Origin: Octopus sinensis
Taxonomy: Eukaryota
Direction of reading: 5' to 3'
Length of the DNA stretch: 22,654 nt
NCBI RefSeq assembly: GCF_006345805.1
Contig: NW_021836798.1
Coordinates: 1-22,654, forward strand
Positions within the stretch are counted from its first letter, which is position 1. The number at the start of each line of letters is the position of its first letter. Below, piece after piece: positions 1 through 15,607 of the stretch. The notes beneath the pieces are model-generated. The model did not search any database. It was not told where the DNA came from and worked only from the letters and a program-made list of their open reading frames with translations. The translations under genes were made by a program, and so were the position numbers.

Positions 1-255
1 ATGTATGTGTTTGTATGCGTATATATGTATATATACATATATGTATGTATGTATATATATGTATGTATATATGTATGTATCTATGTATGTATATGTATAT
101 ATATGTATGTATGTATGTATATGTATGTATGTATGTATGTATGTGTATGTGTGCATATATATGTATGTATGTATATATGTGTGTATATGTGTGTGTATGT
201 ATGTTTGTATATATGTATGTATGTATATGTATGTATATATACATACATATACATA
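1..255. repeat. Compound (TATG)n/(TA)n microsatellite
   Basis: Direct read; it accounts for the MYVC-type N-terminus of ORF 1..1356. Confidence 0.97.
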
Positions 256-1438
256 CTTGGAGATTGGCTGCACAACTTCCTAAAAGACAGAAAACAGGCA
301 GTTGTGAGCAATGGAGCCACCTCCAAGGAAATGCAAATTACAAGCGGTGTCCCACAGGGCACTGTCTTGGGGTCACTGATGTTCATAGTGGCCCTTTCAG
401 ACATGCCTTCAGTTGCTACGATGACCACCCTTGCTAGCTATGCAGATGACACAAAAGTCTCCCACGCAATAAAAAACCCTGAAAATATTGCGCATCTGCA
501 ACATGAGCTGGACACAATATACAGGTGGGCTGAGGACAACAACATGCAGTTTAATGCAGGTAAGTTCCAGGCCCTGCGCTACTGGCACACAATGGTAAAT
601 GACGTGAAGACTGGATACACTGGCCCAGGAAGAATTGCAATCCCTGAATCAAAATCAGTGCGTGACCTGGGCATTGACATGAGCAATGATGCATCTTTCC
701 AAGTGCATATTGCTAATCTGGTGATAAAATGCAGACGGCTAGCTGGATGGATTCTCCGAACTTTCAGAACAAGAGAGAAGGAGACACTGATGGTCCTATG
801 GAAAACATTCGTCCTCAGCCGCTTGGACTACTGCTCCCAACTTTGGTCACCACACAATATAAAACTAACAGCAGAACTCGAAGCAATTCAGAGAAGCTAC
901 ACAAAGAAAATGGTCTCAATGCAAAATATCAGCTACTGGGAAAGACTGAAGGTATTAAACCTCTTCTCCCTAGAGCGGAGGCGGGAGAGATATGCGGTGA
1001 TATACATCTGGAAAATCCTGGAGGGTCTTGTCCCAAACTTTGGCATTCAAAGTTACTCCAACCGCAGAACGGGGCGCCACTGCATGGTGCCAAAGATTCC
1101 AACATCACCATCAAAATACAGGTCCAGATACTGCAACAGCTTGGGTTTCAGAGGACCACAGCTCTTTAACATCCTCCCTAAATGCCTGAGAGACTTACAT
1201 GGTGTGGATGTAGGTTTCTTTAAAACTAAACTGGATCTCTTCTTGTTGGGAGTCCCAGATGAACCTACCTCACGACAGGAGACGCGGATGCGGGCAGCAG
1301 CATCGAACTCCCTTGTTGATCAAGTGCCACGTATCAGAGGTGGATTCACAAATTAGTGTAGCTTATTCAGCGGTGGTACCCCAGCATGGCAGCGGCCTTC
1401 GGTCTAAAACATTTTTAAGAATTTAAGGATTTAAGGAT
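256..1438 (+). mobile_element. 5'-truncated CR1/L2-group LINE: ORF2 reverse transcriptase C-terminal half, 3' UTR and short-repeat tail
   Basis: Open frame 256-1356 has SGVPQGTVLG, YADDTK, WAEDNNMQFN, VRDLG, SRLDYCSQLWSP and SYWERLKVLNLFSLERRRER, which are typical CR1-group RT motifs. The 3' UTR has a small GC hairpin and an imperfect (TTTAAGGA)3 tail at about 1414-1438. Confidence 0.93.
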
Positions 1439-1590
1439 ATATGTATGTAAGTATATATATATATGTATGTAAGTATATATATGTATATATATATGTATGT
1501 ATGTATGTATGTATATATATGCATGTATGTATATTTATATATGTATGTATGTTATGTATGTATGTATGTGTGTATGCATTTATATATATG

Positions 1591-1629
<39 letters not shown>

Positions 1630-1867
1630 GTATATATATGTATGTATGTATATATATGTATGTATATATGTATGTATGAATGTATGTATATGTATGTATG
1701 TATGTATGTATGTTTGTATGTATGTTTGTTTGTATGTATGTATGTATGTATATATGTATGTATGAATGTATGTATGTATGTATGTATGTATGTATGTATG
1801 TATGTATGTATGTATGTATGTATGTATGTATGTATATATATATGTATGTGTGCATGTATGTATGAAT
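1439..1867. repeat. (TATG)n/(TA)n microsatellite
   Basis: Direct read. Confidence 0.97.
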
Positions 1868-2450
1868 GTCGTTGTTCAATTTTATTTCAAGATTTCTTGC
1901 CAATAGAGAAAGAGCCGGTTTCTTACCTAGATTCAAGGCTCCTTCATTGAAATTTCAACATCAGGGTATTTTTTTATGTATATGTGTATGTATATGTGTA
2001 GATTTATGTTTTACTTTATGTACGTCTTCTCATGCATATAGTTGCATATTTAGACATTTATATATATATATATTTAAATGATAAACTTCTGGAAAATTTT
2101 TCAGATTTTTACAGTTCCACTGATGGTTTGGATTTGTAGTCTTCGAATTAGCTTTCTCCTTTCTGGTTTTCAGAAGCCTAATTTCTCAAAGTTGATATTT
2201 TGGTAATGTGTTATATAAACCTGAACTTGTATTCTGGATAGAATAACTACAGATTTCTCATTAGTTCGTCATATGTACTCTCATATTTACTGATCTTCAG
2301 CTCTATGTTAACTCCCACTGGGCAACTAATTTCTACAACTGTACACAGTTTCTCTTCTCTATCCCAAATCATTATATCAGGTCTGTTGTGCTTACATTTT
2401 GTTGAGGTCTTCACTGATGTATGTAAATTAATTCATAAACCTGCATATAT
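1868..2450 (-). mobile_element. 3' end of RLE-endonuclease non-LTR retrotransposon (R4/Dong-like), copy 1
   Basis: Minus strand translates KCKHNRPDIMIWDREEKLCTVVEISCPVGVNIELKISKYESTYDELMRNL*LFYPEYKFRFI*, a PD..E..K restriction-like endonuclease. AATAAA (plus tttatt about 1881) is followed by a (TACA)n tail. Confidence 0.85.
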
Positions 2451-4206: not shown

Positions 4207-4367
4207 TTATGTATGTATGTATGTATGTATGTATGTATGTATGTATGTATGTATGTATGTATGTATGTGTGCATGTATCTATGTATGCATATATGTATGT
4301 ATGTATATATGTACGTATGTATGTATGTGTGTATATGTATGTATGTATGTATGTGTGTGTGTGTATG

Positions 4368-4401
<34 letters not shown>

Positions 4402-4621
4402 TGTATGAATATATATGTATATATGTATGTATGTATTTATGTATATATGTATGTATGTAGGTATGTGTATGTATGTATGTATGTATGTATATATATATAT
4501 ATATATGTGTGTATGTATGTATATATATGTATGTATGTATATATATATGTATGTGTGTTTGTATGTATTTATATATGTATGTGTGTATATATATGTATGT
4601 ATGTATATATATGTATGTATG

Positions 4622-4654
<33 letters not shown>

Positions 4655-5108
4655 ATGTATGTATATGTATGTATGTATTTATATATGTATGTATTTATAT
4701 ATGTATGTATGAATGTAAGTATATATCTGTATGTATGTATATATGTGTCTGTATGTATGTATGTAGATATGTATGTATGCATGTATGTATGTAGGTATAT
4801 GTATGTATATATGTATATATATATATGTACGTATGTATATATGTATGTATATATATGTGTGTATGTATGTATATATATGTATGTATGTATGTATATGTAC
4901 GTATGTATATATATCTATGTATATGTATGTATGTATACGTATGCATGTATGTATTTATATATGTATGAATGTATGTATATGTATGTATGTATGTGTGTGT
5001 ATGTATGTAGGTATGTATATAAGTATATATGTATGTATAAATGTATGTAAGTATATATGTATGTACGTATGTATTTATGTATGTATGCATGCATGTATGT
5101 ATGTATGT
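4207..5108. repeat. ~0.9-kb compound (TATG)n/(TA)n microsatellite
   Basis: Direct read. Confidence 0.97.
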
Positions 5109-5657: not shown

Positions 5658-5778
5658 GTGTGTGTATGTATGTATGTATGTATGTATGTATGTACGTATG
5701 TATGTATGAATATATGTATGTATGTATATATATATGCATGTATGTATGAATGTATGTATATATATATGTATGTATGTA

Positions 5779-5810
<32 letters not shown>

Positions 5811-6157
5811 CATGTATGTATGTATATATATGTATGTATATGTATGTATGTATGTATGTATGGATATATATGTATGTATATATATGTATGTATGTATGTA
5901 GTTATGTATGTAGGTATGTATATATGTATGTATATATATGTATGTATGTATATATATATATGTGTATGTATGTATATATGTATATATGTATGTATCTATG
6001 TATGTATGTATATATATGTATGTATGTATATTTATATATGTTTGTATGTATGTATAGGTATATATGTATATATATGTATGTATGTATGTATATATATATA
6101 TATATGTATGTATATATATGTATTATGTATGTATGTATGTATGTATGTATATATATG

Positions 6158-6189
<32 letters not shown>

Positions 6190-6383
6190 TATATATGCAT
6201 GTGTGTATGTATTTATATATATGTATGTATGTATATATATGTATGTATGTATATATATGTATGTATGTATATATATGTATATATGTATATGTATGTATGT
6301 ATGTATGTATGTATATATGTATGTATGGTTGTATGTATATATATATATATATATGAATGTATGTATGAACGTATGTATATATG

Positions 6384-6414
<31 letters not shown>

Positions 6415-6450
6415 TTATGTATATATGTATGTGTGCATGTATGTATGAGT
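5658..6450. repeat. ~0.8-kb compound (TATG)n/(TA)n microsatellite
   Basis: Direct read. Confidence 0.97.
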
Positions 6451-7039: not shown

Positions 7040-7737
7040 GAAGCCTAGTACTTATTCTATCGGTCTCTTTTGCTGAACCGCTAAGTTACGGGGACGTAAA
7101 CACACCACCATCGGTTTCAAGCGATTTTGCAGGGACAAACACAGACACACAAAACACACACACACACACACACATACACACACATACACACACATACACA
7201 CACACACACACACATACATATATACGACGGGCTTCTTTCAGTTTCCGTCTCCCAAATCGACTCACAAGACTTTGGTCGGCCTGAGGCTATAGTAGAAAAC
7301 ACTTGCCCAAGGTGCCACGCAGTGGGACTGAACCCGGAACCATGTGGTTGGTTAGCAAGCTACTTACCACACAGCCACTCCTACACCTATAATATATACG
7401 ATAGGCTTCTTTCAGTTTCCGTCTACCAAATCCACTCACAAGATTTTGGTCGGCCCGAGGCTATAGTAGAAAACACTTGCCCAAGATGCCACGCAATGGG
7501 ACTGAACCCGAACAATGTGGTTGGTTAGTAAGCTACTTACCACACAGCCACTCCTACACCTATAATATATACGACAGGCTTCATTCAGTTTCCGTCTACC
7601 AAATCCACTCACAAGACTTTGGTCGGCCCAATGCTATAGTAGAAAACACTTGCCCAAGGTGCCATGCAGTGGGAATGAACTCGGAACCATGTGGTTGGTA
7701 AGCAAGCTACTTATCTCACAGCCACTCCTATGCCTAT
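7040..7737 (-). mobile_element. tRNA-derived CORE-like SINE with internal (CA)n tract and triplicated 5' head
   Basis: Minus strand reads ggagtggctgtgtggtaag (A box), ggttcagtccc (B box), ccttgggcaagtgt (CORE-like). Units start at plus 7224, 7398 and 7571; body/3' part is 7040-7150. Confidence 0.88.
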
Positions 7738-7739
7738 AA

Positions 7740-8280: not shown

Positions 8281-8786
8281 CAGAACGTAACGGCAGACGA
8301 AATACGGCTACGCATTTTGCCCGGCGTGCAAAAGTTTCCGCCAGCTCGCCGCCTTTAGCGGACGAAATACCTATTTATTCACTACACAAAAAGGGGCTAA
8401 ACACAGAGGGGACAAACAAGAAAAGACTAATGGATTAAGTCGATTATATTGATCCCAGTGCGTAACTGGTACTTAATTTATCGACCCCGAAAGAATGAAA
8501 GGCCTAGTCGACCTCCGCAGAATTTGAACTCAGAACATAGCAGCAGAGGAAATACCTACTTCTTCACGACCCAGAGGGGGCTAAACACAGAGGGGACAAA
8601 CAAGGACAGACAAAGGGATTAAGTCGATTATATCGATCCCAGTGTGTAACTGGTACTTAATTTATCGATCCCGAAAGGATGAAAGGCAAAGTCGACCTCG
8701 GCGGAATTTGAACTCACAACGTAGCGACAGATGAAATATCGCTAAGTATTTCGCTCGGCGTGCTAACGATTCAACCAGCTCACCGA
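8281..8786 (-). mobile_element. tRNA-derived SINE (Meta/MESC-like central domain) with tandemly duplicated body, plus an extra head fragment
   Basis: Minus-strand head aggcggcgagctggc; gagttcaaattccgccgaggtcgactttgcctttcatcctttcggg.tcgataaattaagtaccag. Two ~182-bp body units at about 8356-8537 and 8538-8720; head-only piece 8281-8354. Confidence 0.85.
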
Positions 8787-9638: not shown

Positions 9639-10277
9639 ATAAATGTCTTGCATTTCCGAGTTTTAAAAACGGTGTATGCTGGTGAAAGATAAACTTTGAA
9701 ATAAGGAATTTAACAATACATCAGTTATTAAATTGTAAAAAGTGCGAGTGAGTCAGCATAGGGATCAGTTAAAAACACTACAACGGACAGGTCACTTGTT
9801 AGATTCTGACCGTGTGAGAAGGTTTTTATCGTAACCTAACGAGTGAAAAATAAATACTTGTAATAATATATTAGTGTAAGTTTAAAGGATAATTCCATCC
9901 CAGCAAATTGTTATTTTTTTTTACATGTATTACCATGTACCAAAATATTTCAATTCAGTTCCAATAAAGTAGTGTCAACAATCGTGAAGAATACGTGCAA
10001 AATATATATACATATATATATACATATATTTATTGCTTTTACTCTTTTTTCTTCTCTCTTTTTTGCTTTTAATTTTTTCATTTGTGTTTTCTGTTTAGTT
10101 CAATTTTCTAATTTAATCTTTTAAAACGGTAAACACTGTGAAGGCAATAAATTACGAAAAAAAGTGTAAGACACAAGCAAGTTTTTTCTAAACAAACTTG
10201 GAGTATTTCGTTTTTGGATTTGGTTTGCAAGATTCTTTATGTGAGTTCGTGTGTTGAAGCATATTCTGTTGTGTCTG

Positions 10278-11051
10278 GGGAGAGTCATTTTCTTTTTGTG
10301 CCTTATAACACACTCACTGGTAAAATTTCCACTTAAAATCTTAAAATCATTTCGTCTTGCAACCTTTTCAATAGTCCTGACTCTGTCCGTTATTTACGCT
10401 GCGTTCCCTTTTGCTTTTTTGTGTTCATGTGTGTGAGGCAGTGTGTGTGTGTGACTATACATGCATGCATGCATGCATGTATGTATGTATGTATGTATGT
10501 ATGTATGTATGTATGTATGTATATATGTATGTCTGTGTGTGTTTGCATGTGTATGTATATATGTTTGTGTACGCATATGTATATATGTATGTGTGTGTAT
10601 CTCTATGTATGTATCCTTCATATTTATGAGCTTGCATGTCGGTGTTTGTGTATTTCCTATGTATGTGTGTGCAAGCGTGTGTTTGTATATGTATGCACTT
10701 CTGTCTCCTTGTGTGTGCATGTCTGTGTGTGTGTGTGTTATGCAACTATGTACCATGTTTGTATGTATGGTTGTGCATCTTTATATGTGTGGATCCTTGT
10801 CTCCATATTTGTCTGTTTATACACGCATGCATGTATAGTCACGCACAACACACACACACACACACTGATTTACACACATGCGCACAAACAAACAAAAGGG
10901 AACGCAGTGTAAATAACGGACAGAGTCAAAACTATTGAAAAGGTTGCAAGACGCAACGAAAATTTTAGGAAAATTAAAAATAAGAAATAAGTGGAAATTT
11001 TACCGGTGAGTGTGTTACATAAAAAGGCACAAAAAGAAAATGACTCTCCCC
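10278..11051. mobile_element. Inner inverted repeat (~190/225-bp arms) of Penelope-like terminal-repeat fragments
   Basis: 10278-10468 is the reverse complement of about 10825-11051 (gggagagtcattttctttttgtgcc ... ggcacaaaaagaaaatgactctccc). Arms contain hammerhead motifs. Mirrored at about 12610-13398. Confidence 0.75.
10932..10968 (+). ncRNA. Minimal type I hammerhead ribozyme motif, U3:A8 core variant
   Basis: CTA-TTGAAAA-G-GTTGC-AAGAC-GCAAC-GAA-AATT-T-TAG: stem I CUA/UAG, core UUGAAAA, 5-bp stem II, GAAA, palindromic AAUU stem III. Confidence 0.6.
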
Positions 11052-11176
11052 AAACTTGGAGTAGATGTGCCAAAAACATGTAAAATAAACAGTAAATGTA
11101 GACGAAAAACAAAACAAAAAACACAAAAAGACACCCAAAACTTACACTATTGAATTCAATTTTATTTTATCAATAT

Positions 11177-11196
11177 ATATGTATATATAAGATATG

Positions 11197-11233
<37 letters not shown>

Positions 11234-11310
11234 GTATATCTATATATATATGTGTATATATATATATATGTATATCTATATATATATGTGTATATATATA
11301 CCATATATAC

Positions 11311-11346
<36 letters not shown>

Positions 11347-11465
11347 GTATACAAATATATATATACATATATATTTACATATATATATATATATATATAC
11401 ACATATATATATATACATATATATACATATATATATATACATATAAATACATATATGTATATATA
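11177..11465. repeat. (TA)n-rich microsatellite
   Basis: Direct read. Confidence 0.95.
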
Positions 11466-11751
11466 GAAAATAGTAAAAAGTGAAAAAACTACAGAAGGCT
11501 TGTTTTAAAAGGTAAAAAAATATATTTGAGTCATTATGTCAGAAGAATGTTATAAATTTTTTTTCATACAGTGACATAGTTTTTGAAGAAATTACCGGTT
11601 TCGTGTTAACTTTTCAAATTTCTCAAAACATCGTGTTATGTCTTCGTTATGAAATGCAAAGTAGAGTTCCAGTTGGGGGAGGTAATATGTGATTTCTTCT
11701 GGTATAAGGGAGATAATCGCTTTATATTCCTTTCCCTTTTATTAATAGGGT

Positions 11752-11763
11752 TATAATATATAT

Positions 11764-11836
<73 letters not shown>
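11752..11836. repeat. (TA)n microsatellite
   Basis: Direct read. Confidence 0.95.
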
Positions 11837-11839
<3 letters not shown>

Positions 11840-11971
11840 GATTATTAGATAGCAGAACCTATACATATACAATTTATAAATAGGTTAAAATCTTTATAAG
11901 AATTTATCAAGTAGTTAGCGTGAAAAACTTCATAAGGAAAAAATCCATCAATTTTTCTCTTAATTAAATTA

Positions 11972-12135
11972 ATTTATATTGAGGGCTTTTCTATACATAA
12001 ATGCCACACGCTAGGAGGGACTCTTAAAGTAAAAACTACCAAAATAAATAAAGACCATTTAATTTGGTAGTTTTGACTTTTAAGAGTCCTTCCTGGCCTG
12101 TGGCATTTATGTATAATAATGCCCTCAATATAAAT
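11972..12135. repeat. Hairpin-forming inverted repeat, ~78-bp arms, 7-nt loop
   Basis: atttatattgagggc..tatacataaatgccaca..ggactcttaaagt..aaaactaccaaa.taaat / aaagacc / reverse complement. Confidence 0.92.
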
Positions 12136-12273
12136 ATAAATACAAATATAAATATAGATATAAATATAAATATAAATAAAAAAATAAAATATATATATAT
12201 ATTCAAAATGTAACCACTCGTGAATCGTTGGCGATTTTCTTCCTCCGTCTTCCTTTCTATCGGACGTTCTTCT

Positions 12274-12312
12274 GTTTCTGAAGAAGGAAGAGCGTTGCTC
12301 GAAACGTTAAAC
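12274..12312 (+). ncRNA. Minimal Penelope-type hammerhead ribozyme motif (CUGAAGA core), probably impaired by an insertion
   Basis: GTTT-CTGAAGA-AGGAA-GAGC-GTT-GCTC-GAA-ACGT-T-AAAC; palindromic ACGU stem III; lies in a pyrimidine-rich PLE-like terminal repeat at about 12205-12420. Confidence 0.7.
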
Positions 12313-12487
12313 CATCTTCCTTTCTTCCCTGAATGTCTGCTAATACTTTACATGTACCACATCCTCGCGTCGTATCTTTTTGTATTTTTTTGTGTTTGTT
12401 CTTCTTTTTTGGGATTCACAACATATATATATATATGTATGTATGTATGTATATATGTATGCATTTATGTATAATTATCACGAAATG

Positions 12488-13646
12488 ATATTGATAAAAT
12501 AAAATTGAATTCAATAGTCTAAGTTTGGGGTGTTTTGTGTTTTTTTGTTTGTTTTTCGTCTACTTTACTGTTCATTTTACATGTTTTTGGCACATCTACT
12601 CCAAGTTTGGGGAGGGTCATTTTCTTTGTGCCTTTTATGTAACACATCACCGGTAAAATTTTCCACTTATTTCTTATTTTTAATTTCCTAAAATTTTCGT
12701 TGCGTCTTGCAACCTTTTCAATAGTTTTGACTCTGTCCGATATTTACACTGCGTTCCTTTTGTTTGTTTGTGCGCTTGTGTGTAAATCAGTGTGTGTGTG
12801 TGTGTGTGTGTGGTCTGTGTGCGTGACTATACATGCATGCGTGTATAAACAGACAAATATGGAGACAAGGATCCACACATATAAAGATGCACACCCATAC
12901 ATACAAACATGGTACATAGTTGCATAACACACACACACACAGACATGCACACACAAGGAGACAGAAGTGCATACATATACAAACACACGCTTGCACACAC
13001 ATACATAGGAAATACACAAACACCGACATGCAGCTCATAAATATGAAGGATACATACATAGAGATACACACACATACAATATACCATATGCGTACACAAA
13101 CATATATACATACACATGCAAACACACACAGACATACATAGATACATACGTACATACATACTACATATACATACATACATACATACATACATACATACAT
13201 ACATACAGCATGCATGCATGTATAGTCACACACACACACTGCCTCACACACATGAAACAAAAAAGCAAAAGGGAACGCAGCGTAAATAACGGACAGACTC
13301 AGGACTATTGAAAAGGTTGCAAGAGGAAACGATTTTAAGATTTAAGTGGAAATTTTACCAGTGAGTGTGTTATAAGGCACAAAAGAAAATGACTCTCCCA
13401 GAGACACACAGAAATGCTTCAACACACGAACTCACATAAAGAATCTTGCAAACCAAATCCAAAAACGAAATACTCCAAGTTTGTTTAGAAAAAACTTGCT
13501 TGTGTCTTAAACTTTTTTCGTAATTTATTGCCTTCACAGTGTTTACCGTTTTAAAAGATTAAATTAGAAAATTGAACTAAACAGAAAACACAAATGAAAA
13601 AATTAAAAGCAAAAAAGAGAGAAGAAAAAAGAGTAAAAGCAATAAA
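12488..13646 (-). repeat. Right arm of ~1.15-kb near-perfect inverted repeat
   Basis: Reverse complement of 10029-11176; differs mainly by small indels. Confidence 0.95.
12688..12724 (-). ncRNA. Minimal hammerhead ribozyme motif, U3:A8 variant (mirror of 10932-10968)
   Basis: Plus ctaaaattttcgttgcgtcttgcaaccttttcaatag is the exact reverse complement of the 37-nt motif. Confidence 0.6.
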
Positions 13647-15489: not shown

Positions 15490-15549
15490 CGTGTGTATGT
15501 ATGTATGTATGTATGTATGTATGTATGTATGTATGTATGTATGTATGTA

Positions 15550-15607
<58 letters not shown>
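15490..15607. repeat. (TATG)n(GT)n microsatellite in putative 3' UTR
   Basis: Direct read. Confidence 0.95.

What the first reader, a model, noticed from the sequence alone, without database searches (positions are those of the whole stretch)
10932..12724. Hammerhead ribozyme motifs with a compensatory U3:A8 core in a repeated element
Seen: CUA-UUGAAAA-G-GUUGC-aagac-GCAAC-GAA-AAUU-U-UAG on + (10932-10968) and on - (12688-12724), with decayed copies at about 10340-10377 (-) and 13305-13340 (+). Established: hammerheads need the C3-G8 pair, U3-A8 is a known functional swap, and Penelope-like elements carry minimal hammerheads whose palindromic stem III works in a dimer. The layout mirrors the CUGAAGA motif at 12274. 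Inference: a CUGANGA pattern search would miss this family, so it may be an uncatalogued, high-copy self-cleaving RNA. Stem I is only 3 bp, so activity is uncertain.
Basis: partly seen in the sequence, partly recalled or inferred. Interest (0 to 1): 0.75.

Follow-up and report, generated by a model that had tools for sequence, protein, structure and literature searches.

The report
Penelope retrotransposon hammerhead with U3–A8 core
The 37-base motif is the hammerhead-type RNA module in the 3' end of a very abundant Penelope-like retrotransposon of an octopus-type genome, with a paired U-A swap in the catalytic core that is predicted, but not shown, to keep self-cleavage; this kind of variant is already known from flatworm Penelope elements.

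Summary
CTATTGAAAAGGTTGCAAGACGCAACGAAAATTTTAG lies at 10932-10968 (+) and 12688-12724 (-), with decayed copies at 10340-10377 (-) and 13305-13340 (+). The two perfect copies are arms of one 1.1-kb inverted duplication. The genome, however, holds 1,296 exact copies, and a relaxed minimal-hammerhead descriptor hits shuffled windows 0.01 times on average.

My first reading, a SINE carrying the motif antisense, was wrong. The repeat is the 3' end of a Penelope-like element (PLE). Its ORF has a CX4CX2C linker and a GIY-YIG endonuclease and lies upstream on the same strand in 10 of 12 ORF-selected copies. The window holds head-to-head 5'-truncated copies flanked by a 12-bp target duplication.

A sister PLE family (about 60% protein identity) carries a canonical CUGAUGA hammerhead at the same place. 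Against it, helix I, helix II and the 3-8 pair show four compensatory double changes and none that breaks a pair.

The motif has the published hallmarks of PLE minimal hammerheads. The U3-A8 swap was already reported for Schistosoma PLEs in 2014, so this is a new member of a known kind. Cleavage is untested. Rfam misses it, and also misses the canonical PLE hammerheads here.

The parts
10932..10968 (+). Intact minimal hammerhead-type motif with U3-A8 core. Parse: CUA (helix I) / UUGAAAA (positions 3-9) / G unpaired / GUUGC-AAGAC-GCAAC (helix II) / GAAA (12-15.1) / AU (15.2-16.2) / U16.1 U17 / UAG (helix I). Predicted cut after 10965.
   Evidence: In local folds with 10-60 nt of flank, the minimum-energy structure contains exactly helix I and helix II.
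12688..12724 (-). Identical motif in the other arm of the inverted duplication. The predicted cut on the - strand lies between 12691 and 12690.
10340..10377 (-). Decayed copy of the motif in PLE copy A. The 3' strand of helix II and the GAAA core are damaged.
13305..13340 (+). Decayed copy of the motif in the mirror copy A'.
10819..11050 (+). PLE family-1 copy B. It is 5'-truncated (junction about 10818) and ends at the short-form 3' end. It carries the intact motif.
10205..10818 (-). PLE family-1 copy A, in inverted orientation. Its long-form 3' end (...ACGAAAT on the - strand) lies at 10205. Its CA-rich 3'-UTR region reads as TG-rich on +. It is 5'-truncated at about 10818, so it sits head-to-head with copy B.
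10193..10204 (+). 12-bp direct repeat CAAACTTGGAGT, left copy. Target-site duplication flanking the A/B composite.
11051..11062 (+). 12-bp direct repeat CAAACTTGGAGT, right copy.
12610..13471 (.). Mirror image of the composite: copy B' (-, about 12610-12845) and copy A' (+, about 12846-13471). It is flanked by the reverse-complemented 12-mer at 12598-12609 and 13472-13483.
10029..11160 (.). Left arm of the 1.1-kb inverted duplication; the right arm is 12500-13646. The same host segment recurs on other contigs (C27 several times, C10440, C11477).
12274..12312 (+). The 'CUGAAGA motif at 12274'. It is a canonical-core minimal hammerhead of another repeat family, here spoiled by a 4-base GGAA duplication at the 5' side of helix II.
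   Evidence: Intact form: GUUU-CUGAAGA-A-GAGC-GUU-GCUC-GAAA-CG-UU-AAAC in L005, L180, L190, L191 and L196.

Best explanation
The motif is the hammerhead module of the 3' untranslated end of a Neptune/Nematis-like Penelope-like retrotransposon family, in which the core pair C3-G8 has been replaced by U3-A8. It is predicted to self-cleave after U17 when two copies pair through their AAUU stretch, as proposed for other Penelope minimal hammerheads.

Shown here:
- the sequence and its copy number;
- its place on the sense strand, about 90-160 nt from the element's 3' end;
- its homology to a canonical-core hammerhead at the same place in a sister family;
- compensatory changes in helices I and II and in the 3-8 pair.

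Inferred:
- catalysis;
- dimer formation;
- a role in processing tandem element transcripts.

The four copies in the window are dead, 5'-truncated insertion products and need not do anything where they lie.
For: **1. Link to a PLE.** Independent copies extend upstream into a 360-aa ORF on the motif's strand. It ends in CTNDNCMVC...VVYSIRC...MYIGETSRSIAEWINGH.
- In 10 of 12 loci picked by that ORF, the 3' unit lies downstream on the same strand. In the other 2 it is an inverted copy upstream.
- The sister family has intact ORFs of 907-1120 aa with YVDD.
- The C-terminal domain was modelled at pLDDT 87.5. Its best match is the I-TevI GIY-YIG catalytic domain: E 1.9e-3, probability 1.00, target TM 0.74.

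**2. Polarity.** Of 30 copies picked by an upstream segment, 14 reach the long 3' end, 12 the short one, and 1 the long one with an internal deletion. Two end elsewhere and 1 locus is cut. Of 51 independent copies picked by the 3' unit, only 15 reach that upstream segment. So the upstream side is the variably truncated 5' side.

**3. PLE insertion anatomy in the window.** There is a head-to-head 5'-truncated pair with a 12-bp duplication. The same anatomy is seen in the young family, for example L106.

**4. Published hallmarks of PLE minimal hammerheads** (PMC4209133, passages). All are present:
- one unpaired base between positions 9 and 10.1;
- G10.1-C11.1;
- palindromic 15.2-16.2;
- a short helix I;
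- dual motifs on opposite strands 100-700 bp apart.

**5. Covariation.** The sister family carries CCA-CUGAUGA-G-GUCACA-GAAG-UGUGAC-GAAA-GAAC-UC-UGG at the aligned place.
- Against it the window motif shows U-A for C-G in helix I, U-A for C-G at 3-8, and two double changes in helix II. No one-sided break occurs.
- On 12 representatives of 6 groups, 94.5% of 110 cells pair, against 68.3% in shuffles (0 of 500 as high) and 32-54% when slid. Pair 3-8 is U-A in 7 and C-G in 5, never unpaired.
- With positions 3 and 8 left free, a scan of 584 kb of loci gave U/A 89, C/G 24 and other 2.

**6. Presence in related genomes.** The U3 and A8 letters show no variant at 10% or more in contig sets of four organism labels.
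Against: - No cleavage data exist. All runs on offer were contigs whose RNA status is a guess, so ends could not be read.
- Helix I has only 3 bp.
- The trans helix III would be four A-U pairs. The predicted dimer prefers an 8-bp AAAAUUUU duplex that would bury A13, A14 and U17.
- No Rfam hammerhead model matches at E up to 10. The canonical-core PLE hammerheads of L068, L162, L005 and L071 are also absent from the 150 listed of 171 rows, so this weighs little.
- Across 122 copies the motif is not significantly better kept than its flanks: 0.052 against 0.058, p = 0.06.
- The helix pairs were partly required by the descriptor that picked the sequences. Only the 3-8 pair and the family-1/family-2 comparison are free of that circularity.
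- Published PLE minimal hammerheads cleave poorly in vitro (PMC4209133). In one PLE, hammerhead mutants did not affect insertion in vitro, and no RNA-seq reads ended at the cut site (PMC11167929).
- The youngest family here has C at position 9, which suggests the module can decay without stopping amplification.
Confidence: 0.6

Rival explanations
1. Relic hammerhead. The motif descends from a PLE hammerhead but no longer cleaves. It is carried along because the element does not need it.
For: - Naiad PLEs thrive without canonical hammerheads (PMC8557442).
- Hammerhead mutants did not affect PLE insertion in vitro (PMC11167929).
- The youngest family here (copies 99-100% identical, intact ORFs) has CUGAUGC, that is C at position 9.
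- Helices I and III of the window motif are weak.
Against: Random decay would not be expected to hit exactly positions 3 and 8 with a pair-keeping change while leaving U4, G5, A6, A9, G12-A14, A15.1-U16.1 and U17 intact. Nor would it make three further double compensatory changes in helices I and II. A second, unrelated high-copy family also has U3-A8, and so does Schistosoma (PMC4209133).
Confidence: 0.27
2. The conserved hairpin and flanks serve another role in the element's 3' UTR, for example recognition by the element's RT at the start of reverse transcription. On this reading the hammerhead look is secondary.
For: - The motif lies 90-160 nt from the 3' end, close to two discrete 3' ends: 66 long, 46 short and 10 other among 122 copies.
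- PLE RT starts at internal sites near the 3' end (PMC11167929).
Against: Nothing ties RT initiation to this hairpin. The single-stranded core letters, which a mere hairpin signal would not need, are kept between families.
Confidence: 0.08
3. Chance look-alike inside an unrelated repeat (SINE, MITE or foldback), read on the wrong strand.
For: This was my own first reading. The unit abuts (TGTA)n/(CA)n-rich DNA, as retroposon tails in this window do. There is no Rfam hit.
Against: - The TG/CA-rich stretch is conserved internal sequence of a longer element.
- The ORF lies on the motif's strand.
- Shuffles give 0.01 descriptor hits per window.
- A homologous canonical hammerhead exists in the sister family.
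Confidence: 0.03

Closest known systems
Minimal hammerheads (min-HHR) of metazoan Penelope-like elements, including the U3-A8 variant of Schistosoma mansoni Cercyon elements (Cervera and de la Pena 2014, PMC4209133)
   Same: - Type I layout with no stable helix III of its own.
- A palindromic 15.2-16.2 pair.
- One unpaired base before helix II.
- A G10.1-C11.1 pair.
- A short helix I.
- Location in the element's terminal repeat or 3' region.
- Thousands of mostly solitary copies from truncated elements.
- Pairs on opposite strands a few hundred bases apart.
- The same U3-A8 for C3-G8 covariation.
   Different: - The host is an octopus-type genome. I found no paper on octopus hammerheads: one search returned 5 papers with both terms, none on the subject.
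- Helix II has 5 bp (6 in a common C-to-U variant) rather than 7-8.
- Helix I has 3 bp.
- The 15.2-16.2 pair and its neighbours are all A/U, giving an 8-base AAAAUUUU palindrome.
Canonical type I hammerhead ribozymes (core C3U4G5A6N7G8A9 / G12A13A14 / A15.1-U16.1 / H17; Rfam hammerhead families)
   Same: Eleven of the 13 named core letters are present, in the right order and spacing around helices I and II, with a permitted U at position 17.
   Different: - C3 and G8 are U and A.
- There is no loop-loop tertiary contact.
- There is no helix III hairpin.
- Rfam models do not score it.
Animal non-LTR retrozymes (tandem hammerhead repeats giving circular RNAs; PMC7229834 seen as a search listing only; bioRxiv 10.64898/2026.07.22.740005 seen as abstract only)
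   Same: They are hammerhead-bearing, non-autonomous derivatives related to PLE terminal repeats.
   Different: The copies here are 3' ends of 5'-truncated PLEs, mostly solitary or head-to-head, not tandem arrays of a few hundred bases. Circular RNA was not tested.

Membership tests
Hammerhead ribozyme | Core letters U4 G5 A6 N7 A9, G12 A13 A14, A15.1-U16.1, and H17 in order around three helices | tested here: met
   Parse of 10932-10968. Core definition as quoted in PMC7151607.
Hammerhead ribozyme | C at position 3 and G at position 8 | tested here: not met
   They are U and A in 108 and 112 of 114 aligned copies. The pair itself is kept as Watson-Crick U-A.
Hammerhead ribozyme | A pair between positions 3 and 8 kept by covariation | tested here: met
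   With both positions left free: U/A 89, C/G 24, other 2 of 115 descriptor hits. On the representatives: U-A 7, C-G 5, unpaired 0 of 12.
Hammerhead ribozyme | Site-specific self-cleavage 3' of position 17 | not testable with these tools
   Only contig-level runs were on offer.
Hammerhead ribozyme | Match to a curated Rfam hammerhead model | tested here: not met
   0 hits at gathering score. None among 79 hits at E up to 10. Control: the canonical-core PLE hammerheads in L068, L162, L005 and L071 are also not among the 150 listed of 171 rows.
PLE minimal hammerhead (Cervera and de la Pena 2014) | Lies in the terminal repeat or 3' region of a PLE, on the sense strand | tested here: met
   10 of 12 ORF-selected loci. 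The motif lies 580-730 nt after the stop codon and 90-160 nt before the 3' end.
PLE minimal hammerhead (Cervera and de la Pena 2014) | One unpaired base between 9 and 10.1; G10.1-C11.1; palindromic 15.2-16.2 | tested here: met
   G; G-C; AU. Criteria read.
PLE minimal hammerhead (Cervera and de la Pena 2014) | Large helix II (6-8 bp) and short helix I (4-5 bp; 2 bp in D. virilis) | tested here: inconclusive
   Helix II has 5 bp, or 6 bp in the C-to-U variant at 10952. Helix I has 3 bp.
PLE minimal hammerhead (Cervera and de la Pena 2014) | Families with compensatory changes within one genome | tested here: met
   The helix pairs are partly circular because the descriptor required them.
Penelope-like element (host of the motif) | C-terminal GIY-YIG endonuclease | tested here: met
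   The model's best PDB match is the I-TevI catalytic domain. Pfam itself gave no GIY-YIG hit.
Penelope-like element (host of the motif) | Reverse transcriptase domain | tested here: inconclusive
   YVDD is present in 907-1120-aa ORFs. RVT_1 scores E 0.0022, 18.2 bits, below the cut-off of 29.6. The closest public homolog is named RT domain-containing. Seen only in the sister family; family-1 copies examined are 5'-truncated.
Penelope-like element (host of the motif) | CX2-5CxxC linker before the endonuclease (Neptune/Nematis type) | tested here: met
   CTNDNCMVC and CTDNYCTVC. Criterion read.
Penelope-like element (host of the motif) | Strong 5' truncation and an inverted 5'-truncated copy at the 5' end | tested here: met
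   Criterion read.
Penelope-like element (host of the motif) | Optional 30-40-bp 'tail', that is, two alternative 3' ends | tested here: inconclusive
   There are two discrete 3' ends (66 long, 46 short, 10 other of 122), but they lie about 56-68 nt apart.
Penelope-like element (host of the motif) | Insertion bias for (TA)n microsatellites | tested here: inconclusive
   39 of 112 copies with a canonical 3' end have (TA)4 or more within 30 nt downstream. No background rate was measured.

The most novel reading that the evidence does not exclude
Octopus Penelope elements have moved wholesale away from the textbook hammerhead core. Two unrelated high-copy families use U3-A8, and the youngest family, which looks still active, has C9 and U17. 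The genome would then be a natural mutational series showing either that the hammerhead core is more plastic in vivo than in vitro rules say, or that PLEs shed ribozyme activity stepwise while keeping the fold for another purpose.
Probability: 0.25. Interest if true: 0.6.

Novelty: new member of a known kind. Interest (0 to 1): 0.4.

Why it matters
This adds a cephalopod case, with 1,296 exact copies, to the rare natural hammerheads in which the C3-G8 core pair is swapped for U3-A8. It comes with a built-in comparison: a sister family in the same genome has the canonical core at the same place. That pairing makes a clean test of the 3-8 pair possible with natural sequences. It also shows that Rfam-based annotation misses Penelope minimal hammerheads altogether. 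For genome annotation, it explains the nested inverted repeats of this window as ordinary Penelope insertion products.

Tried and rejected
1. **SINE with a (TGTA)n tail, motif antisense**. Rejected when the TG/CA-rich stretch proved to be conserved internal sequence, the apparent A-rich tail proved internal, and an ORF appeared on the motif's strand.

2. **Rfam.** No hammerhead hit. The control shows the models also miss the canonical PLE motifs.

3. **Pfam.** No GIY-YIG hit, and RVT_1 only below the cut-off. The fold search was used instead.

4. **RNA evidence.** No RNA holder was listed. All 22 runs are contigs whose RNA status is a guess. The laid contigs show presence in four organism labels but no molecule ends (table 6: none).

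5. **Conservation across copies.** No significant excess in the motif.

6. **Earlier notes of the scan.** None exist for this genome.

7. **Literature on in-vitro U3-A8 activity.** Searches found only PMC4209133 for the natural variant. Older bench work on C3-G8 exchanges is recalled, not seen.

8. **Not examined.** The supplements of PMC4209133, which may list further species, were not opened. The PLE link of the second U3-A8 family was not tested.
Full report
**Observation.** The 37-mer CTATTGAAAAGGTTGCAAGACGCAACGAAAATTTTAG is at 10932-10968 on the + strand, and its reverse complement is at 12688-12724. The weaker copies at 10340-10377 (-) and 13305-13340 (+) are real and damaged. They keep the 5' half, but the 3' strand of helix II is altered and four bases of the GAAAA stretch are deleted. 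The two perfect copies are not independent, because they lie in the arms of one inverted duplication, 10029-11160 against 12500-13646. The motif is still far from chance:
- The exact 37-mer occurs 1,296 times in the 2.72-Gb genome, against 0 for the reversed control.
- A relaxed minimal-hammerhead descriptor finds only these two sites in the window, and a mean of 0.01 sites in 200 dinucleotide-preserving shuffles.

**A wrong turn.** An alignment of 30 copies showed one sharp end next to (ACAT)n/(CA)n-rich DNA and a ragged other end. Other retroelements in the window end in (TATG)n. I therefore first read the unit as a SINE whose sense strand is opposite to the motif. That reading failed on three counts:
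- The TG/CA-rich stretch is conserved at 80-87% over 300-350 bases in many independent copies, so it is internal sequence.
- Copies continue beyond it through a 140-base segment and an A/T-rich stretch into at least 1,115 more bases.
- That extension carries a 360-aa ORF on the motif's strand.

**Polarity.** Of 30 copies picked by the upstream 140-base segment, 14 reach the long 3' end, 12 the short one, and 1 the long one with an internal deletion. Two end elsewhere and one locus is cut by its contig. Of 51 independent copies picked by the 3' unit, only 15 reach the upstream segment. The upstream side is therefore the variably truncated 5' side, and the unit is the 3' end. In 10 of 12 loci picked by the ORF, the unit lies downstream on the ORF's strand. 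In the other two it is an inverted copy upstream.

**What the element is.** The ORF ends in CTNDNCMVC...VVYSIRC...MYIGETSRSIAEWINGH.
- The genome holds at least 8,065 first-look candidates for it. The 113 scored fall into the window's family (69-100% identity, mostly with stops) and a sister family (57-61% identity), many of whose members are uninterrupted.
- Four sister-family loci have ORFs of 907-1120 aa with a YVDD motif and the same C-terminal domain.
- Pfam gives only RVT_1 below its cut-off and no GIY-YIG hit.
- A model of the last 185 residues (pLDDT 87.5) has the I-TevI GIY-YIG catalytic domain as its only clear PDB match: E 1.9e-3, probability 1.00, target TM 0.74.
- The best public homolog, 98% identical, is annotated as a hypothetical, RT domain-containing protein of Octopus vulgaris.

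These features are the published marks of endonuclease-bearing Penelope-like elements of the Neptune/Nematis type (PMC8557442, passages): an RT, a CX2-5CxxC linker, a C-terminal GIY-YIG, heavy 5' truncation, inverted 5'-truncated copies at the 5' end, and frequent (TA)n next to the 3' end (39 of 112 copies; no background was measured).

**The window itself.**
- Copy A (10205-10818, - strand) and copy B (10819-11050, + strand) lie head-to-head.
- Both are 5'-truncated, with their 3' ends outward.
- They are flanked by the 12-bp direct repeat CAAACTTGGAGT at 10193-10204 and 11051-11062.
- The whole composite was later duplicated in inverted orientation.
- The sister family shows the same anatomy. 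In L106, for example, a motif on the - strand lies upstream of the ORF and one on the + strand lies downstream. Many head-to-head pairs appear.

**Is it a hammerhead?** The parse is CUA / U3 U4 G5 A6 A7 A8 A9 / G / GUUGC-AAGAC-GCAAC / G12 A13 A14 A15.1 / A15.2 U16.2 / U16.1 U17 / UAG. Apart from positions 3 and 8, every named core letter is present.

Cervera and de la Pena (PMC4209133, passages) list what sets PLE minimal hammerheads apart from chance:
- one base between 9 and 10.1;
- G10.1-C11.1;
- palindromic 15.2-16.2;
- a short helix I;
- consensus families full of compensatory changes;
- dual motifs on opposite strands 100-700 bp apart.

The motif has all of these. The same paper reports U3-A8 in place of C3-G8 in Schistosoma Cercyon elements, with about 1,300 hits.

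**Between-family comparison.** This is the strongest evidence here.
- The sister family has, about 120 nt from its 3' end, CCA-CUGAUGC-G-GUCACA-GGAG-UGUGAC-GAAA-GAAC-UU-UGG.
- An older relative of that family, with at least 2,303 candidates, has the canonical CCA-CUGAUGA-G-GUCACA-GAAG-UGUGAC-GAAA-GAAC-UC-UGG.
- A structure-blind global alignment of the two 3' regions puts the motifs in register.
- Against the sister motif the window motif differs by U-A for C-G in helix I, U-A for C-G at 3-8, and two double changes in helix II. No paired position is changed on one side only.
- On 12 representatives of six groups, 94.5% of 110 cells pair, against 68.3% in shuffles (0 of 500 as high) and 32-54% when slid. 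The 3-8 pair is U-A in 7 and C-G in 5.
- The helix pairs in that set were required by the descriptor that found the sequences, so they are partly circular. The 3-8 pair was not required. With both positions free, 113 of 115 hits in 584 kb of loci are U/A (89) or C/G (24).
- A second high-copy family also has U3-A8: at least 1,597 candidates, ACA-UUGACAA--GGGG-CAAAUA-CCCU-GAAA-CGCG-UC-UGU and variants.

**Points against activity.**
- Helix I has three pairs.
- The trans helix III would be four A-U pairs, and the predicted dimer prefers an 8-bp AAAAUUUU duplex that would cover A13, A14 and U17. In local monomer folds the minimum-energy structure does contain exactly helices I and II.
- Across 122 copies the motif is not significantly better kept than the rest of the unit: 0.052 against 0.058 per non-CpG site, p = 0.06. 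This is expected for dead copies.
- Rfam finds nothing. It also fails to list the canonical PLE motifs of this genome (150 of 171 rows shown).
- Published PLE minimal hammerheads cleave weakly and only as dimers or with a lengthened helix III (PMC4209133).
- In the one PLE studied in vitro, hammerhead mutants did not change insertion, and no RNA-seq reads ended at the cut site. There, C3G/G8C partly restored what the single changes abolished (PMC11167929).
- The RNA route here led nowhere, because only contigs were available. Those contigs do show the family, with U3 and A8 unchanged at the 10% level, under four organism labels.

**Verdict.** I put about 0.9 on the motif being a hammerhead-derived module of a Penelope-like element whose fold was kept by selection in the master lineage, and roughly 0.5 on it still cleaving. 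The stated confidence of 0.6 is for the combined statement. It is a new member of a known kind, not a new class. The copies in the window are fossil insertion products.

Noticed in passing
window 12274-12312 (+); L005:1139-1171: The 'CUGAAGA motif' belongs to another repeat family with at least 4,261 first-look candidates. Its dispersed copies carry an intact canonical minimal hammerhead (GUUU-CUGAAGA-A-GAGC-GUU-GCUC-GAAA-CG-UU-AAAC). The window copy and its relatives clustered on contig C27 have a 4-base GGAA duplication that leaves five unpaired bases before helix II. A related set reads CCGACGA in place of CUGAAGA.
   Followed up: partly
L103:1859-1898 (-), L104:5368 (+), L107-L136: The youngest PLE family has 3' units 99-100% identical and intact ORFs up to 1120 aa. 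It carries CUGAUGC (C at core position 9) and U17, whereas its older relative has CUGAUGA and C17. A9 is a conserved core letter, so the currently most successful family may have an impaired hammerhead.
   Followed up: partly
L003:2356-2392 (+) and 2031-2067 (-); L137-L156: A second high-copy family (at least 1,597 candidates) has minimal hammerheads with a U3-A8 core, a CGCG palindrome and C17. Copies often lie head-to-head a few hundred bases apart. Helix II varies AGGG/CCCU, GGGG/CCCU and GGGG/CCCC. Its link to a PLE ORF was not tested.
   Followed up: partly
window 1-1869 (+): The C-terminal part of a non-LTR (LINE-type) reverse transcriptase ORF (1-1356, ...YADDTKV...) is followed by a 3' UTR and a (TATG)n tail at 1440-1869. 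Long (TATG)n/(TGTA)n arrays also lie at 4208-5108, 5659-6447 and 15494-15607.
   Followed up: no
window 7218-7739 and 8357-8738: Two tandem arrays with long units: 173 bp x 3.0 copies at 91% match, and 184 bp x 2.1 copies at 86% match. The first contains a GGGACTGAACCCGG-type stretch reminiscent of tRNA-derived SINE heads (recalled resemblance, not tested).
   Followed up: no
window 11985-12125: A roughly 140-base near-perfect hairpin (TTGAGGGC...GCCCTCAA) lies in the centre of the large inverted duplication. It gives weak sub-threshold Rfam matches to mir-559 (40.1 bits against a gathering score of 95). The same hairpin recurs in L003 and L005, and looks like a small foldback or MITE-like repeat.
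   Followed up: no
genome-wide, listing: Exact copies of the 37-mer sometimes lie only 7-70 bases apart on opposite strands, for example C1:11426594-11426630 (-) with 11426637-11426673 (+). Occasionally they lie on the same strand about 0.9 kb apart (C1:107522413 and 107523341). The latter would put two motifs in one transcript.
   Followed up: no
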